From positions 1-54,268 of the IMG/VR virus record IMGVR_UViG_3300004153_000002: a stretch of 54,268 nt of DNA; one strand, 5' to 3'. The notes under the pieces were generated by a model. It was not told the DNA's origin and did not search any database. It saw nothing but the letters and a program-made list of their open reading frames with translations. The translations under genes were made by a program, and so were the position numbers. Below are positions 1 through 54,268 of the stretch, one piece after another. The stretch's first letter is position 1; every line of letters begins with the position of its first letter. Source of the stretch: a virus. Taxonomy: Duplodnaviria > Caudoviricetes.

Positions 1-60
1 GAACAGCTTTTAAAGCAGTCTCCGTCGAATGAAGACCTGCAGTACATCATTGAGTATACA
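1..60 (+). repeat. Terminal near-direct repeat, left copy (59/60 identical to 54209-54268)
   Basis: Direct comparison of both ends; single A/G mismatch at 41 vs 54249; lies within an 81-bp-period coding repeat. Confidence 0.95.
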
Positions 61-375
61 AAGTTGAATAACGAAGCGGCGAAGGTGCTGTGTGAACGTT
101 TAGGTGTTCAGCCAGTCGATGAAGAAGCACTAATCAAGGAAATCGCTGAAGCTGTGATCGGCCAGCCAGGATCTTTGAATATGGACCACTGGCATTGTAG
201 AACTACTCATTGTTTGGCTGGATGGGCCTGTGTAATCAATCCGGTTGCCGCTGCAATAGAAAAGAACAATGACACCGAAACTGCGGGATGTGCCGTTTTG
301 CCTAATTATGCAAAACTGTTCTTCTCCGATAACGAAACCGTCCTGAACAAGCTGAAGGAAATTAACTCTAAATAA
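1..375 (+). CDS. 3' part of a repeat-containing protein spanning the contig junction; C-terminal His/Cys domain (LNMDHWHCRTTHCLAGWA)
   Basis: Frame 1 is open from base 1 (EQLLKQSPSNEDLQYIIEYT...) and continues the ORF starting at 54131. Confidence 0.8.
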   Translation, partial: EQLLKQSPSNEDLQYIIEYTKLNNEAAKVLCERLGVQPVDEEALIKEIAEAVIGQPGSLNMDHWHCRTTHCLAGWACVINPVAAAIEKNNDTETAGCAVLPNYAKLFFSDNETVLNKLKEINSK

Positions 376-20750: not shown

Positions 20751-21055
20751 GAAAGAAACTGGTATATTTTACGTTTAATTTCAGGTTTGAAGTGATGAAC
20801 ACCCGTGATCTATTCGGGTTTAAGATGGGATATTCGGTTGTATCTCTGGCAATGGATGAAGCCCCTAAACAAGGGGATATCGTTCGCCTGAAGTATGCGG
20901 ACTATGAAAAGTGGGCAAAGGAAACCGGACTTCAATTTGATTATGTACAGAAATTTTGCAGAGTTAAGCAAGTATATCATATACCAGCTGATCAGCATGA
21001 CAGTACTGCAAACCACATGGTCACTTTTGTTGATTTGTCGGTGATTGAAAAATAA
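20747..21055 (+). CDS. Hypothetical protein
   Basis: ATGA-coupled ORF. Confidence 0.65.
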   Translation: MRKKLVYFTFNFRFEVMNTRDLFGFKMGYSVVSLAMDEAPKQGDIVRLKYADYEKWAKETGLQFDYVQKFCRVKQVYHIPADQHDSTANHMVTFVDLSVIEK

Positions 21056-21056
21056 A

Positions 21057-21088
21057 TTTGGTTCGTATTTACGAACCAAGTATATTTA
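21057..21088 (+). promoter_or_regulatory. Operator-containing promoter P2
   Basis: TTTG-N20-TATATTTA; palindrome 21060-21077. Confidence 0.85.
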
Positions 21089-23202: not shown

Positions 23203-23220
23203 GGTGTTTTTTAAAATAAA

Positions 23221-23252
23221 TTTGGTTCGTATTTACGAACCAACTATATTTA
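23221..23252 (+). promoter_or_regulatory. Operator-containing promoter P3
   Basis: TTTG-N20-TATATTTA; palindrome 23224-23241. Confidence 0.85.
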
Positions 23253-25522: not shown

Positions 25523-25542
25523 AATGCGTATAAGAAAATATA

Positions 25543-25574
25543 TTTGGTTCGTATTTACGAACCATTTACATTTG
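25543..25574 (+). promoter_or_regulatory. Operator-containing promoter P4
   Basis: TTTG-N20-TACATTTG (perfect consensus); palindrome 25546-25563. Confidence 0.85.
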
Positions 25575-27758: not shown

Positions 27759-27765
27759 AAATAAA

Positions 27766-27797
27766 TTTGGTTCGTATATACGAACCACTTATCTTTA
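27766..27797 (+). promoter_or_regulatory. Operator-containing promoter P5
   Basis: TTTG-N20-TATCTTTA; perfect 18-bp palindrome GGTTCGTATATACGAACC. Confidence 0.85.
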
Positions 27798-29575: not shown

Positions 29576-30706
29576 ATGGCAAAAGAAAAGTTTGAAGACA
29601 GGCGCCTGACCGGTACGATAAATGTGGCATGTAAATATGACGACGGAAACGTTCGCTACTGGACCGCTGACAAAGCTGAAGTGGTTGCGCATATTGTATC
29701 AATAGTAAATACTTACAGCCGTAAAGGCTACGTACTTACTTTGCGGCAACTTCATTACCAGTTAGTTTCCCGCAACTGGATCATCAACCATGATACAGCA
29801 TATAAGAAATTAGGATCTATCCTGGACGATTGCAGATATGCCGGTGTTATAGACTGGTCAGCGATAGAAGACCGTGGTCGTGTACCTTACCTGCCATACT
29901 ACGCAGATGATGCAGCAGACGCCGTGGAAGACATCACAGCGTCGTTCAGGATCAATAGACAGGAAGGACAAACCAACTACGTTGAGTTATGGACTGAAAA
30001 AGATGCCCTTTCCGGTATATTAAAACGCACTACGCAGAAATACCACGTACAGCTGGTCGTCAACAAAGGGTACACATCAAGTAGCGCCATTTACGGTGCT
30101 TATGAACGGGTAGTTGAAAGAATACTTAATGGCCAGAAAGTCAACATCCTTTATTTTGGTGATCATGATCCATCAGGACTGGACATGATACGCGATATCC
30201 GTGACCGCCTTAGTTTCTTCCTATCACGTGGTGATACCTTGCGGGCAAGTGAACGTTTTAACTCACTAGTTGAAGACTGGTGGATCAACAGCGGTAATGA
30301 CATTTACGACCTGGTGAGCATGAAGTTTTGTGAAGAAAAGGTGCTGAAGTTAATGAACGATGATGACAATGAAGGTTTATTCGATGACTTCAATGCCGGT
30401 AAGGTCGCTTATTATCTGTTCGATAATGAACTGTTCACCGTCCGTGCAATAGGGCTGACTATGGACCAGATCGAAGAACACCTTTTACCGCCCAATCCAA
30501 CGAAGATGACCGATAGCCGTGCAGCGAACTATGTTAAGGAGTTCGGCCGTACCTGTTGGGAAGTAGATGCGCTCAATCCTGAAACGTTAACTGAAATTGT
30601 TGAATACAATATCACCCAACAGATCAACATGGATGTTTATCAGAATGCGCTGGACCGTGAAGCAATGGAGAAACAAAAATTGATTGATTTTAAAAACCAA
30701 CTCTGA
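29576..30706 (+). CDS. Spo11/Topo VI-A-like (JetD-like) TOPRIM protein
   Basis: LTLRQLHYQL winged-helix motif, VELWTEKDAL, YFGDHDPSG, EVDAL. Confidence 0.75.
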   Translation: MAKEKFEDRRLTGTINVACKYDDGNVRYWTADKAEVVAHIVSIVNTYSRKGYVLTLRQLHYQLVSRNWIINHDTAYKKLGSILDDCRYAGVIDWSAIEDRGRVPYLPYYADDAADAVEDITASFRINRQEGQTNYVELWTEKDALSGILKRTTQKYHVQLVVNKGYTSSSAIYGAYERVVERILNGQKVNILYFGDHDPSGLDMIRDIRDRLSFFLSRGDTLRASERFNSLVEDWWINSGNDIYDLVSMKFCEEKVLKLMNDDDNEGLFDDFNAGKVAYYLFDNELFTVRAIGLTMDQIEEHLLPPNPTKMTDSRAANYVKEFGRTCWEVDALNPETLTEIVEYNITQQINMDVYQNALDREAMEKQKLIDFKNQL

Positions 30707-52380: not shown

Positions 52381-52388
52381 AAAATAAA

Positions 52389-52420
52389 TTTGGTTCGTAT
52401 TTACGAACTACATACTTTTA
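52389..52420 (+). promoter_or_regulatory. Operator-containing promoter P7
   Basis: TTTG-N20-TACTTTTA; GGTTCGTATTTACGAACT. Confidence 0.8.
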
Positions 52421-52440
52421 CAGAATCAACAACAGGCAAA

Positions 52441-52869
52441 ATGCTTCATCAAGAAATAAACATTTCACTTCGTCAATCTGCGAACTTACAACAACTTGCA
52501 GAGTATTTGCTTCAACCAGGTATCCAAGAAGTTTTTGACATGACGACCTATGTAAAAGGTGGCGGTAGTCCATGTAATCACGACCATGCAGGCGTGGCAG
52601 ATGCAATAGGGCATGGACCACGTGCAGGTATCGAACCGTTGTTTGGTGAAGAATGGATGCAGTATGTTGAACGGTGCTTCACCGGTATAGATCCTGATTG
52701 GTGTATGTTCAATTTCTTGTTCGCTCAGGAGTGGGCAGAGTTCGATAATACACCCGAAGGTGTAGCAGCCCGCATCGCTTATGTGCTGAGCAATGGTTGT
52801 CCCTGGTTAGGCAGTGAATTTCTCTTCTTACCGGAACAAGTAACTGAACTGGTAAGTCTTTATAAATAA
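52441..52869 (+). CDS. Hypothetical early protein (FDM...AIGHGP...FLF...DNT type)
   Basis: ATG after P7 leader. Confidence 0.7.
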   Translation: MLHQEINISLRQSANLQQLAEYLLQPGIQEVFDMTTYVKGGGSPCNHDHAGVADAIGHGPRAGIEPLFGEEWMQYVERCFTGIDPDWCMFNFLFAQEWAEFDNTPEGVAARIAYVLSNGCPWLGSEFLFLPEQVTELVSLYK

Positions 52870-52926
52870 CTGTATGTCCGAATGCTGAAACGATTAGTAC
52901 TAATCAAGTAAGCGGCCGGTATACAT

Positions 52927-53063
52927 GCGGTGGTGGTGAAACTGGCAAACACAGTGTGATCGTATGCACACTGAAGCATTTTAATACATGCGCATGTATT
53001 AAAATTCGATCCCTGCAAAGGATAGTTCGCTTCTTCCCTGTTCGACTCGGGGCCACCGCACCA
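52927..53063 (+). tRNA. Atypical tRNA-Leu-like RNA with 8-nt anticodon loop and 64-nt branched variable region, encoded CCA
   Basis: Acceptor GCGGTGG/CCACCGC-A-CCA, D-arm GTG-AAACTGGCAAA-CAC, T-arm CCCTG-TTCGACT-CGGGG. Confidence 0.75.
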
Positions 53064-53166
53064 GCCGGATAAAAACACATAACATGCCTGTAACCGTTCT
53101 GTTGGTATGTATTGGCCTTTATGGGCACTGAAAAATACAATGTTCGGCTGAACAAGTCAGCCACCT

Positions 53167-53280
53167 GGCAGGGTAGCTTAGACGGTATGTATGAAGAATA
53201 CATTACAAGCGGTGGAGGCATACTCTATGACATGTTACTTAGCGGTGCATTTTAGGCGGGTTCGATTCCCCCACCTGCCA
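53167..53280 (+). ncRNA. Second tRNA-like RNA with a hairpin inserted in the D-loop and a long variable arm
   Basis: GGCAGG/CCTGCC acceptor, TA-GCTT...AAGC D-stem, GGG-TTCGATT-CCC T-arm. Confidence 0.6.
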
Positions 53281-53305
53281 CGAATCAAAACCAATATTAT
53301 CAATT

Positions 53306-53590
53306 ATGACTACATTAACAACGGCGGAGTACGCCGAACTTAGCGGCATCACACAACGGGCTGTTCAAAAGTCTGTTAAAAAGTGTGTTGACCAGCACCG
53401 GGAAGAAAGAAAAATCCCGCCTGATAAACAGGTGACCGTTACCAAAATAGACAACAAAGCCCTTGTAGCTATTGAGAAGATTGAGTTCTTCGGCAAAACG
53501 GCACAACTGGTAATGGAAAAGGATTACAAAAGGAAGATTGCAAAATCTATTCCCGATCGTTTGAAAAAAGTAAGATCTAAAGTAAAATAG
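53306..53590 (+). CDS. Helix-turn-helix DNA-binding protein (excisionase/MerR-like HTH)
   Basis: LTTAEYAELSGITQRAVQKSVKK. Confidence 0.75.
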   Translation: MTTLTTAEYAELSGITQRAVQKSVKKCVDQHREERKIPPDKQVTVTKIDNKALVAIEKIEFFGKTAQLVMEKDYKRKIAKSIPDRLKKVRSKVK

Positions 53591-53592
53591 AA

Positions 53593-54099
53593 ATGACAAC
53601 CATCTTGACAGAACTTCATACAGCAACACCTGAGAAACTTCAGTTTGAAATCAAACGTTTAAAACGAAATTTAGCTGTAGTGAACAGTAAATTAAAAGAT
53701 CGTCAAATTGAAATAAAATTGATGCAGGATGAAGTTAAGAAAATTAAAAAAACCTTCGCCATCGACGCTTCAGGTGTTGAAAATCCGAATTACGAAAAGG
53801 TGGTTAACATAGCTATTAGAAAACAAGATACTATCGAAGATCTTCGCCGTTCACATAAAGCTGAACTTTCATCAATTACCACCAGACACAAAAAAGCGCT
53901 TAAACACGCCCACATGATCATAAAAGACGCTTACGATCACGGCTTCCGTAGATCATCGTTTTTAGCTGATCCTGGCAGCGTTAGAAAGCGTCCTTTTACA
54001 TTGAAGGAACTACAGGTGTATTATTTGGGTGCTGAATGCCATTGTTCAGACTGCGAACAGCACTTTGATGAATGTACCTGCGTTAAAACAATTGAGTAA
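53593..54099 (+). CDS. Coiled-coil protein with C-terminal Cys cluster
   Basis: Heptad pattern; CHCSDC...CTC. Confidence 0.7.
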   Translation: MTTILTELHTATPEKLQFEIKRLKRNLAVVNSKLKDRQIEIKLMQDEVKKIKKTFAIDASGVENPNYEKVVNIAIRKQDTIEDLRRSHKAELSSITTRHKKALKHAHMIIKDAYDHGFRRSSFLADPGSVRKRPFTLKELQVYYLGAECHCSDCEQHFDECTCVKTIE

Positions 54100-54130: not shown

Positions 54131-54268
54131 ATGGAATCAATGTTGAATAAGTCGAATAAAGACCTGCGGTACATCATCCGGTGGACAGATTTGAAACAGG
54201 TTGCAGGAGAACAGCTTTTAAAGCAGTCTCCGTCGAATGAAGACCTGCGGTACATCATTGAGTATACA
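54131..54268 (+). CDS. 5' part of the 27-aa-repeat protein, continuing at base 1
   Basis: MESMLNKSNKDLRYIIRWTDLKQVAGEQLLKQSPSNEDLRYIIEYT; open to the contig end. Confidence 0.8.
   Translation, partial: MESMLNKSNKDLRYIIRWTDLKQVAGEQLLKQSPSNEDLRYIIEYT
54209..54268 (+). repeat. Terminal near-direct repeat, right copy
   Basis: 59/60 identical to 1-60. Confidence 0.95.

What the first reader, a model, noticed from the sequence alone, without database searches (positions are those of the whole stretch)
52927..53063. 137-nt tRNA-Leu-like RNA with a giant branched variable arm and a non-canonical anticodon loop
Seen: a full cloverleaf scaffold with a perfect 7-bp acceptor, A73 plus encoded CCA, U8, G18G19, an A15:U48 pair and a TTCGA T-loop. 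The anticodon stem GTGTG/CACAC closes an 8-nt loop (ATCGTATG). The variable region is 64 nt: GAAGC/GCTTC closes a junction holding a perfect 28-bp palindrome (ATTTTAATACATGCGCATGTATTAAAAT, 52978-53005) and a second hairpin. Established: A73, A15:U48 and a long variable arm are bacterial tRNA-Leu features, and bacterial LeuRS largely ignores the anticodon. Inference: a chargeable but non-decoding tRNA mimic, for example a decoy for anticodon nucleases or tRNA-sensing defences, an aminoacyl donor, or a dimerising scaffold. Standard tRNA finders would probably miss it.
Basis: partly seen in the sequence, partly recalled or inferred. Interest (0 to 1): 0.8.

Follow-up and report, generated by a model that had tools for sequence, protein, structure and literature searches.

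The report
Oversized leucine-tRNA look-alike in soil phage
A soil phage carries a 137-base gene built on a leucine-tRNA frame, with a spoiled codon-reading loop and a 54-base insert in its extra arm, so it joins the long-known but unexplained tRNA look-alike RNAs of phages.

Summary
Window 52927-53063 is a full class II tRNA-Leu frame: 7-bp acceptor, A73, encoded CCA, Leu-type D-arm, intact T-arm, a 5-bp anticodon stem closing an 8-nt loop, and a 64-nt variable region holding a perfect 28-nt palindrome. ARAGORN (default) and Rfam miss it. A covariance model I built from 56 ordinary tRNA-Leu genes matches it end to end (59.9 bits, E 1e-14), placing a 54-nt insert in the variable-arm loop and one extra base in the anticodon loop.

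It is therefore a tRNA-Leu derivative that cannot decode normally. Whether it is a working RNA or a relic is open. I found no divergent ortholog, so covariation could not be tested, and no RNA run holds it.

Among 75 distinct tRNA-like genes sharing its D-arm, all 9 with variable regions of 26 nt or more lack a Leu anticodon. One such lineage shows compensatory changes. The closest described relatives are phage T5 RNA1-type 'tRNA-like stable RNAs'.

Earlier notes of this scan report leucine-tRNA look-alikes in many other phage genomes. This one is a new variant: anticodon hairpin kept, variable arm expanded. The charging and decoy ideas remain untested.

The parts
52927..53063 (+). 137-nt tRNA-Leu-derived tRNA-like gene (A73 at 53060, encoded CCA at 53061-53063)
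   Evidence: Sequence. R1 full-length hit 52927-53060, 59.9 bits, E 1e-14. ARAGORN with its intron option returns exactly these ends.
52927..52933 (+). acceptor 5' strand GCGGTGG, pairs with 53053-53059 CCACCGC
   Evidence: Pair probabilities 0.97-0.99.
52934..52952 (+). T8 G9 and Leu-type D-arm GTG-AAACTGGCAAA-CAC
   Evidence: The 17-mer is identical in 59 ordinary tRNA-Leu genes.
52954..52971 (+). anticodon-like hairpin GTGTG-ATCGTATG-CACAC with an 8-nt loop; can extend to 7 bp as CAGTGTG/CACACTG (52952-52973)
   Evidence: Pair probabilities 0.98-0.99, extension 0.92-0.98. R1 places one extra base in the loop.
52972..53035 (+). 64-nt variable region: T, stem GAAGC (52973-52977) / GCTTC (53029-53033), TT
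   Evidence: R1 aligns GAA/TTC as the variable-arm stem, with 54 nt where the model has 3.
52978..53005 (.). perfect 28-nt palindrome ATTTTAATACATGC|GCATGTATTAAAAT, symmetric through its centre
   Evidence: As RNA, a 12-bp hairpin of -8.0 kcal/mol; self-duplex -35.9.
53009..53023 (+). small hairpin ATCC-CTGCAAA-GGAT
   Evidence: Included in the cloverleaf scored. The MFE forms a 3-bp version.
53036..53052 (+). T-arm CCCTG-TTCGACT-CGGGG
   Evidence: Pair probabilities 0.59-0.83.
53167..53280 (+). second, more degenerate tRNA-like element: G7-A66 and C50-C64 mismatches, hairpin in the D-loop, CAT flanked by GG, no CCA
   Evidence: Read. Only its T-arm (53258-53270) matches models (R1 7.8 bits). 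In the X10 relative, 53062-53280 is replaced by 108 other letters.

Best explanation
The element is a phage gene derived from a class II tRNA-Leu. It keeps the whole upper body (acceptor stem, A73-CCA, D/T elbow) and intact lower stems. It has lost normal decoding: the loop has 8 nt and no Leu anticodon. It also carries a 54-nt, two-hairpin insert in the loop of the variable arm.

Most likely mechanism (inferred, not shown): it is transcribed with the upstream 159-aa gene, since I found no promoter-like or terminator-like site of its own. The host's tRNA-maturation enzymes then cut it out (RNase P at 52927, 3' trimming to the encoded CCA). It persists as a stable tRNA-shaped RNA of about 137 nt. 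It would act through its upper body, as a substrate or competitor for tRNA-binding enzymes and possibly for LeuRS, and as a cutting mark that separates the flanking messages. It would not act on the ribosome.

It belongs to the loose class of phage 'tRNA-like stable RNAs' built on a Leu frame, such as T5 RNA1. Its variant features are that the anticodon hairpin is kept and the variable arm is expanded.
For: 1. Descent from tRNA-Leu. R1 gives a full-length match, 59.9 bits, E 1e-14, the only hit in 54 kb. T5's genuine tRNA-Leu scores 62.6 bits with the same model.

2. All five stems are intact: 25 pairs, of which 24 are Watson-Crick and 1 is G-T, with 0 mismatches. All LeuRS determinants named in PMC9976931 are present.

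3. Ordinary decoding is unlikely. The loop has 8 nt and the variable region is 64 nt, against 5-19 nt in the 59 ordinary tRNA-Leu genes that share the D-arm.

4. The pattern recurs. Of 75 distinct D-arm-sharing sequences, 9 have variable regions of 26 nt or more, and none of the 9 has a Leu anticodon.

5. One such lineage is under structural selection. L005 and L008 differ by compensatory double changes in the anticodon stem, the variable-arm stem and the T stem. Variable-arm stems differ in sequence but stay paired across 5 members.

6. There is a described precedent: T5 RNA1 is annotated 'tRNA-like stable RNA with unknown functions' and has a Leu-type D-loop.

7. Context. The element lies in a 436-nt gap (52870-53305) between two same-strand genes; by my ORF list (which also counts a doubtful 50-aa ORF at 53191-53343) it is one of only 8 gaps over 150 nt in the window. 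There is no terminator-like site on the + strand in 52500-53700. The nearest upstream TAnnTTTG box on the + strand is at 52385-52392.

8. A close relative in run X10 keeps the element's 3' end (53040-53061, 1 change in 22) even though the next 219 nt are replaced.
Against: - No divergent ortholog was found: IMG/VR, JGI metagenomes (only L050, which is the same genome), 401 Bacteroidota genomes. Structure-preserving evolution of this RNA is therefore untested.
- R1 was trained on genes chosen because they share the element's own D-arm 17-mer, which inflates its score.
- The neighbouring element 2 is visibly decayed, and in a relative it is replaced. This fits a tRNA cluster in decline.
- The palindrome is symmetric through its centre, which an RNA hairpin does not need. 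ATACAT/ATGTAT occurs 6 times in 52870-53305 against 0.26 expected, including sites outside both tRNA-like bodies. This points to a DNA-level role for the insert.
- The variable-arm stem has low predicted probability (0.05-0.06).
- None of the 48 + strand ORF products scanned against Pfam (of 80 ORFs listed) matched a tRNA-related enzyme.
Confidence: 0.45

Rival explanations
1. Relic: a former phage tRNA-Leu gene inactivated by a one-base gain in the anticodon loop and a palindromic DNA insertion in the variable-arm loop. It is still recognisable because the damage is recent, and it has no role as RNA.
For: - Element 2 next door has two stem mismatches, G at position 33 and no CCA.
- In the X10 relative, 53062-53280 is replaced by 108 other letters.
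- Other genes with the same D-arm show disruptive events: a tRNA nested inside a tRNA frame (L045) and 5'-half stumps (L047, L052, L053; L082).
- No ortholog and no RNA holder were found.
Against: - There are 0 mismatches in 25 stem pairs. The anticodon stem GTGTG/CACAC differs on both strands from every ordinary relative yet is perfectly paired.
- By my ORF list the window has only 8 gaps over 150 nt in 54 kb, so an inert 436-nt gap would be unusual.
- Analogous expanded forms are maintained with compensatory changes.
Confidence: 0.3
2. DNA-level reading: the 28-bp palindrome and the ATACAT repeats are binding sites for a phage regulator, for example the 94-aa HTH protein encoded at 53306-53590. 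They would lie in the control region between the lysis genes and the following genes. The tRNA-like frame is only the substrate in which the sites sit.
For: - The dyad symmetry is perfect through the centre.
- ATACAT/ATGTAT occurs 6 times against 0.26 expected, and this is the densest 436-nt stretch of the window. ATACATGCG occurs 3 times and GGTATGTAT twice.
- Both inserts (element 1 variable arm, element 2 D-loop) are inverted repeats of the same TGTAT/ATACA word.
- The downstream protein has a weak KorA-type HTH match (E 0.003, 18.2 bits, below the 26.7 cutoff).
Against: - The two inverted repeats have opposite half-site orientation and different spacing, so they are not one operator design.
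- The motif was found after the fact. With about 2,000 hexamers and about 120 windows, the corrected significance is marginal.
- No Bacteroidota-type -7 box lies in 52393-53305.
- The HTH match is below Pfam's threshold.
Confidence: 0.15
3. A decoding tRNA after all: either a four-base (+1 frameshift) reader using the 8-nt loop, or a Tyr-type tRNA (GTA in the loop, A73, long variable arm).
For: - The loop ATCGTATG contains GTA preceded by an extra C.
- Bacterial tRNA-Tyr is class II with A73 (recalled).
- Earlier notes of this scan report phage tRNAs with an extra C before the anticodon (unchecked).
Against: - The position after GTA is T, not a purine.
- The 64-nt branched variable region is over three times the largest seen in the 59 ordinary relatives.
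- The D-arm is Leu-type.
- I did not look for four-base sites in the phage genes.
Confidence: 0.05
4. Intron-containing tRNA: the insert is spliced out to give an ordinary tRNA.
For: ARAGORN with its intron option returns 52927-53063 as 'tRNA-Arg(tcg) with a 47-nt intron'.
Against: - That parse needs a mismatched anticodon stem (cagtg/ccctg) and a weakened D stem.
- There is no group I intron or other Rfam match.
- 47-54 nt is far below the size of group I introns (recalled).
- Removing the variable-arm insert would still leave the 8-nt loop with no Leu anticodon.
Confidence: 0.03

Closest known systems
Phage T5 RNA1 (AY543070 30501-30644, annotated 'tRNA-like stable RNA with unknown functions'); by recollection also the T4 stable RNAs C and D
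   Same: Phage-encoded and about 140 nt. It has a Leu-type D-loop (AATTGGTAGA), a T-arm and paired ends, extra folded sequence between the D-arm and T-arm, and no usable anticodon.
   Different: - In the MFE fold, T5 RNA1 is expanded in the anticodon-arm position and keeps a short variable-arm-like hairpin. Here the anticodon hairpin is short and the variable arm carries the insert.
- T5 RNA1 lies in a large tRNA cluster, whereas this phage has no ordinary tRNA gene.
- No sequence homology beyond tRNA features was shown; R1 gives T5 RNA1 only 17.3 bits.
Ordinary bacterial and phage class II tRNA-Leu (Rfam RF00005)
   Same: Acceptor, A73, D-arm, A15-U48, G18G19, A20a, variable-arm stem flanked by Y44 and TT, T-arm. 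Full-length R1 match.
   Different: The loop has 8 nt with no NAG/YAA anticodon. The variable region is 64 nt against 5-19 nt. It is not detected by RF00005 or by default ARAGORN.
Class II tRNAs with non-cognate anticodons: nematode nev-tRNAs (PMC3333845, abstract seen in the listing) and bacterial allo-tRNAs (PMC5389517, abstract start seen)
   Same: A Leu/Ser-type long-arm scaffold whose synthetase ignores the anticodon, combined with an anticodon that is not Leu or Ser.
   Different: Those have normal 7-nt loops and are proposed decoders. Allo-tRNAs have 8/4 or 9/3 acceptor/T branches, whereas this element is 7/5 and has a far larger variable region.
The 'TGT' lineage found here (L005, L007, L008, L062, L131, two copies in L185)
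   Same: The same Leu-type D-arm in the five contig copies, and the same layout Y44-stem-insert-stem-TT. Variable regions are 27-73 nt, with a non-Leu loop. It is missed by Rfam, and ARAGORN finds nothing in L005, L008 and L185.
   Different: Acceptor TGTnnGG, G73, and a conserved 7-nt loop YYGTCNC. It occurs in bacterial MAGs as well as viral contigs. It shares no protein genes with this phage.
Frameshift-suppressor tRNAs with 8-nt anticodon loops (sufD/sufJ class; recalled, and named in earlier notes)
   Same: One extra base in the anticodon loop.
   Different: Those are otherwise normal tRNAs. Here position 37 would be a pyrimidine and the variable region is branched and 64 nt long.

Membership tests
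Canonical tRNA (Rfam RF00005 / ARAGORN) | Detected by the family model or by a standard finder | tested here: not met
   Rfam gave 0 at gathering and no tRNA match at E<=10 in 52700-53500. ARAGORN default gave 0 genes.
Canonical tRNA (Rfam RF00005 / ARAGORN) | Four cloverleaf stems, with the T-loop and D-loop elbow nucleotides | tested here: met
   (7+3+5+5 pairs, TTCGA, G18G19). R1 alignment.
Canonical tRNA (Rfam RF00005 / ARAGORN) | 7-nt anticodon loop with U33 and a purine at 37 | tested here: not met
   The loop is ATCGTATG, 8 nt.
Class II tRNA-Leu | Full-length match to a tRNA-Leu covariance model | tested here: met
   R1 gives 59.9 bits, E 1e-14, positions 1-82 of 82. Caveat: the training set was chosen by the shared D-arm 17-mer.
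Class II tRNA-Leu | E. coli LeuRS determinants A73, A15-U48, G18G19, A20a and T-loop partners (PMC9976931) | tested here: met
   All are present by position. Charging itself is not testable here.
Class II tRNA-Leu | Leu anticodon (NAG or YAA) at positions 34-36 | tested here: not met
   The loop ATCGTATG holds no such triplet in register.
Phage tRNA-like stable RNAs (T5 RNA1 type) | Phage-encoded, tRNA-type ends and elbow, extra folded sequence, no usable anticodon | tested here: met
   The window is a virus record with terminase, portal, capsid and tape-measure genes. Structure. T5 RNA1 was compared.
Phage tRNA-like stable RNAs (T5 RNA1 type) | Accumulates as a stable processed RNA | not testable with these tools
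   No RNA run was listed.
Phage tRNA-like stable RNAs (T5 RNA1 type) | Sequence homology to T5 RNA1 beyond general tRNA features | tested here: inconclusive
   R1 scores T5 RNA1 at 17.3 bits over 1013-1097 of L184. No direct alignment was made.
Allo-tRNA (PMC5389517) | 8/4 or 9/3 acceptor/T-stem branch | tested here: not met
   The element is 7/5.
Intron-bearing tRNA | Removing the insert restores a canonical tRNA; a recognisable intron class | tested here: not met
   The ARAGORN intron parse has a mismatched anticodon stem. There is no intron family in Rfam matches. The 8-nt loop would remain.
Frameshift-suppressor tRNA | 8-nt loop in an otherwise ribosome-competent tRNA, with matching four-base sites | tested here: inconclusive
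   The 8-nt loop is present. The 64-nt variable region argues against ribosome use. Four-base sites were not searched.

The most novel reading that the evidence does not exclude
The RNA is a leucylatable tRNA body that never enters the ribosome. It displays a self-complementary hairpin that could pair two copies. The phage would use it early in infection as a decoy or sponge for a host tRNA-directed defence or tRNA-binding enzyme, or as a private aminoacyl donor. On this reading, variable-arm expansion together with a disabled anticodon marks a wider, uncatalogued class of non-decoding Leu-frame RNAs in phages and Bacteroidota.
Probability: 0.15. Interest if true: 0.8.

Novelty: new variant of a known kind. 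Interest (0 to 1): 0.45.

Why it matters
Phage tRNA-like stable RNAs have been annotated in T5 for two decades and still have no assigned function. This element is a clean case. Every determinant for processing and, by E. coli rules, for leucylation is kept, while decoding is disabled. It is also the only tRNA-type gene ARAGORN or R1 can find in the phage.

The wider result may matter more. Among genes that share one tRNA-Leu D-arm, long variable arms go only with non-Leu loops (9 of 9 against 0 of 59 ordinary genes). This suggests that once a Leu-frame RNA leaves translation its lower half is free to grow. That gives a simple rule for finding such RNAs, which standard finders and Rfam miss.

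If charging or decoy action were shown, it would link these RNAs to the current work on phage tRNAs and tRNA-targeting defences.

Tried and rejected
**Orthologs**
- blastn (distant mode) of 52850-53320 against 50,697 phage records gave no match.
- The search for related loci in IMG/VR with three flanking proteins, and with an alignment of the upstream protein and its two homologues, gave none.
- The exact 24-mer (acceptor plus D-arm) gave 0 in genome contigs.
- The 18-mer palindrome core gave 0 in IMG/VR.
- The metagenome scan returned only the same genome (L050, 100% over 4,819 nt).
- A search of 401 Bacteroidota genomes gave 2 marginal short matches outside the element.

**Expression**
- No RNA holder was listed.
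- Read laying on X9, X10, X11 and X5 gave no contig across the element, and holes prove nothing there.
- X10 record 1 joins a tRNA 3' end to a D-arm 19-mer followed by a Leu(CAG)-type loop. Its acceptor does not fit record 2, so I treat it as another organism's tRNA cluster.

**Tandem-duplication idea**
- Local alignments among element 1, the spacer and element 2 score 16-22 against shuffle means of 14.5-15.4 and shuffle maxima of 22-28, which is not significant.

**Antisense target of the 8-nt loop**
- CATACGAT has 4 sites against 1.37 expected, and one of them is the loop itself. Rejected.

**Telomere-resolution or integrase site**
- No recombinase, integrase or protelomerase appeared among the 48 + strand ORF products scanned against Pfam, of 80 ORFs listed. 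The 32 ORFs not scanned are mostly under 135 aa.

**Minus-strand ORFs**
- The two minus-strand ORFs over the element (105 and 72 aa) match no family.

**'G34-U35-N36-U37' theme**
- The pattern scan returned only the lineages already known plus one chance hit.
- The L185 copies have C or G at position 37, so U37 is not a rule.

**Other checks**
- A kissing loop between the 8-nt loop and the other loops was checked by eye only; no complement of 5 nt or more was seen.
- PMC10690425 (passages) mentions viral tRNA-like candidates only in general terms.
- Supplementary files of papers were not opened and may list similar RNAs.
- With filters off, R1 reported a shorter alternative (52927-53017, 33.6 bits). 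I rely on the full-length default result and note the discrepancy.
Full report
**What is there**

The window is an IMG/VR virus record of 54,268 bp, rated linear and 75% complete. It has terminase, SPP1-type portal, major capsid and tape-measure genes. Its nearest portal relatives are Porphyromonas and Riemerella phages at 32-36% identity. The same DNA occurs in soil and rhizosphere runs. All convincing genes lie on the + strand.

Between the 159-aa gene (52390-52869) and a 94-aa gene (53306-53590) lies a 436-nt gap without a credible ORF. By my ORF list (which also counts a doubtful 50-aa ORF at 53191-53343) it is one of only 8 gaps over 150 nt. The flagged element occupies 52927-53063.

**Checking the observation**

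- acceptor GCGGTGG/CCACCGC, A73 and CCA;
- T8, then D-arm GTG-AAACTGGCAAA-CAC;
- anticodon stem GTGTG/CACAC with the 8-nt loop ATCGTATG;
- a 64-nt variable region closed by GAAGC/GCTTC, holding the perfect palindrome 52978-53005 and the small hairpin ATCC-CTGCAAA-GGAT;
- T48, then T-arm CCCTG-TTCGACT-CGGGG.

The palindrome has 14-nt arms, 100% complementary, with no spacer. It is unique in the window.

ARAGORN in default mode finds no tRNA anywhere in the window. Rfam finds nothing at gathering thresholds and no tRNA match even at E<=10 around the site. The prediction that standard finders miss it is therefore correct. ARAGORN with its intron option does return exactly 52927-53063, but as 'tRNA-Arg(tcg) with a 47-nt intron', which needs a mismatched anticodon stem. 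I take from this only that the ends are tRNA-like.

**Homology to tRNA-Leu**

The D-arm 17-mer TGGTGAAACTGGCAAAC was scanned in three collections:
- IMG/VR: 42 loci;
- JGI metagenomes, with a 62-92-nt gap to GTTCRA: 18 loci.

After parsing for a paired acceptor and a T-arm, 75 distinct tRNA-like sequences remain, the window's included. They divide as follows:
- 59 are ordinary tRNA-Leu genes, with Leu anticodon, A73 and a variable region of 5-19 nt.
- 6 have short variable regions but other triplets: GTT, GTC, TTA, and CTA three times.
- 1 is a parsing artefact, a 5' stump followed by a whole gene (L082).
- 9 have variable regions of 26-73 nt, and none of them has a Leu anticodon.

From 56 of the ordinary genes I built covariance model R1. 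Over the whole window it gives a single hit at E<=1: 52927-53060, 59.9 bits, E 1e-14, covering all 82 model positions. The alignment puts one extra base in the anticodon loop and 54 nt where the model has 3 in the variable-arm loop. T5's genuine tRNA-Leu scores 62.6 bits with the same model.

Two caveats apply. The training genes were chosen because they share the element's D-arm, which favours it. With filters off the program reported a shorter alternative of 33.6 bits.

**Folding**

- The MFE is -45.5 kcal/mol, z -2.62; 4 of 200 shuffles fold as well.
- Pair probabilities: the acceptor (0.97-0.99), the anticodon hairpin (0.98-0.99) and the palindrome (0.82-1.0) are firm, and the T stem is mostly formed (0.59-0.83).
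- The D stem (0.02) and the GAAGC/GCTTC stem (0.05-0.06) are not favoured. The anticodon helix tends to extend by two pairs at their expense.
- In the 56 real tRNA-Leu controls the D-stem pair probability has a median of 0.04. The cloverleaf lies a median 0.9 (maximum 4.7) kcal/mol above the MFE, and 4 of 56 are at or above 3.1.

The element is at the weak end of what real tRNAs show, but inside the range.

**Can it be charged, and can it decode?**

The review PMC9976931 (passage 'Leucine identity') makes three points about E. coli:
- A73 is crucial for leucine identity, but the anticodon and the long variable arm are not.
- A15-U48, G18G19, A20a and the D/T-loop tertiary pairs are essential.
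- Variants lacking both the anticodon arm and the variable arm remain active.

All these determinants are present here. C2-G71, which the same review lists as an antideterminant against SerRS, is present too. Charging by LeuRS is therefore a reasonable inference, but from E. coli rules only, and it was not tested.

Normal decoding is unlikely. The loop has 8 nt, holds no Leu triplet in register, and would put a pyrimidine at position 37. The branched 64-nt variable region is more than three times the largest among the 59 ordinary relatives.

**Is it a working RNA or a relic?**

This is the open point.

For a working RNA:
- There are no mismatches in 25 stem pairs.
- The anticodon stem differs on both strands from all relatives yet is perfectly paired.
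- The genome is compact.
- A close relative in run X10 keeps the 3' end (53040-53061, 1 change in 22) although the next 219 nt are replaced by 108 other letters.
- There is an analogy in the 'TGT' lineage: L007, L005, L008, L062, L131, and two tandem copies in a Mucilaginibacter MAG (L185). It has the same layout, with variable regions of 27-73 nt and a conserved loop YYGTCNC. It shows compensatory double changes in the anticodon, variable-arm and T stems between L005 and L008. Its variable-arm stems differ in sequence but stay paired. It has no Rfam match.

For a relic:
- The second element (53167-53280) has two stem mismatches, G at position 33, a hairpin in its D-loop and no CCA.
- That second element, with the spacer before it, is what the X10 relative has replaced.
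- Other genes with this D-arm show plainly disruptive events: a nested tRNA in L045, stumps in L047, L052, L053 and L082, and a 22-nt insert in the anticodon loop of L055.

Covariation of this RNA is therefore untested.

**A DNA-level signal in the same region**

The hexamer ATACAT/ATGTAT occurs 6 times in 52870-53305 against 0.26 expected from its 32 occurrences in the window. This is the densest such stretch. The sites are:
- directly 5' of the element;
- twice in the palindrome;
- once in the spacer;
- twice in the D-loop hairpin of element 2.

The 9-mers ATACATGCG (3 times) and GGTATGTAT (twice) recur. The palindrome is symmetric through its centre, which an RNA hairpin does not require. 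The downstream 94-aa protein has a weak KorA-type HTH match (E 0.003, below Pfam's cutoff).

This keeps alive a reading in which the inserts are protein-binding DNA. Against it, the two inverted repeats have opposite half-site orientation, the motif was found after the fact, and no Bacteroidota-type -7 box lies in the region.

**Comparison with what is known**

The T5 record annotates RNA1 (30501-30644) as 'tRNA-like stable RNA with unknown functions'. Its sequence has a Leu-type D-loop and a T-arm, with extra folded sequence between them. That is the closest described kind. The lead came from earlier notes of this scan, which report leucine-tRNA look-alikes in many other phage genomes. I checked only the T5 part myself.

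This element differs in keeping a short anticodon-like hairpin and placing the expansion in the variable-arm loop. It is not:
- an allo-tRNA, since it is 7/5 rather than 8/4 or 9/3;
- a recognisable intron-bearing tRNA;
- a member of any Rfam family.

I found no published description of variable-arm-expanded Leu-frame RNAs in four searches of the paper library that returned results. Those searches were word-based and supplements were closed.

**Verdict**

The element is a tRNA-Leu derivative that cannot decode normally. It is most likely a processed, stable tRNA-shaped RNA acting through its upper body (confidence 0.45). A recent relic (0.30) and a DNA-level role for the insert (0.15) are the serious rivals. 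It is a new variant of a known but unexplained kind, and of moderate interest.

Noticed in passing
L007 2000-2095 (+), L005 7666-7769 (-), L008 7667-7770 (-), L062 2865-2979 (+), L131 7058-7199 (-), L185 2504-2616 and 2704-2819 (+): A conserved lineage of class II tRNA-like genes. Features: acceptor TGTnnGG, G73, a 7-nt loop YYGTCNC, and variable regions of 27-73 nt whose stems covary. It occurs in viral contigs, a Sphingobacteriales MAG and, as a tandem pair, a Mucilaginibacter MAG. There is no Rfam match. ARAGORN finds nothing in L005, L008 and L185, and calls L007 'tRNA-???'. G73, G2-C71, G10, GTC and C38 match what I recall of E. coli tRNA-Asp identity.
   Followed up: partly
window 53167-53280: A second tRNA-like element with G7-A66 and C50-C64 mismatches, a hairpin inside the D-loop, CAT flanked by GG, and no CCA. 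Only its T-arm matches models. In the X10 relative, 53062-53280 is replaced by 108 other letters.
   Followed up: partly
window 52870-53305: ATACAT/ATGTAT occurs 6 times against 0.26 expected. ATACATGCG occurs 3 times and GGTATGTAT twice. The inserts of both tRNA-like elements are inverted repeats of TGTAT/ATACA.
   Followed up: partly
L010 1651-1774 (-), the same sequence as L011 9453-9576 (+): A 124-nt Leu-type tRNA-like gene in which an irregular long hairpin replaces the anticodon and variable arms. It starts 6 nt after a phage tmRNA gene. R1 scores it at 48 bits.
   Followed up: no
L055 5135-5241 (+): A tRNA-Leu(TAA)-like gene with an insert of about 22 nt, forming a small hairpin, inside the anticodon loop. 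R1 scores it at 68.2 bits. The insert is too short for a group I intron.
   Followed up: no
L045 (- strand); L047, L052, L053; L082: A complete tRNA-Leu gene is nested between the 5' and 3' parts of another tRNA-like frame (L045). 5'-half stumps of tRNA-Leu sit directly before whole tRNA-Leu genes in the other loci.
   Followed up: no
L004, L006, L009; L029, L030, L034, L041; L051, L066, L136; L173; L115; L143: Leu-type scaffolds carrying other triplets: GTT with T37 and G73; TTA and CTA (stop-codon readers); GTC with A73; TGG and AGG with 32-nt and 26-nt variable regions.
   Followed up: no
window 21050-21087, 23214-23251, 25536-25573, 27759-27796: A repeated palindromic motif AAATAAATTTGGTTCGTA..TACGAACCA that contains a TAnnTTTG box.
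   Followed up: no
window 1-68 and about 54200-54268; L050 39-106: The source contig (54,541 nt) runs past the window's end into a copy 95.6% identical to the window's first 68 nt. This suggests a terminal repeat or a circularly permuted genome.
   Followed up: no
window 52390-52869: The upstream 159-aa protein has only two homologues among 5.8 billion proteins (87% and 66% identity, Logan assemblies only). It has invariant Cys and His residues and no Pfam or PHROG family.
   Followed up: partly
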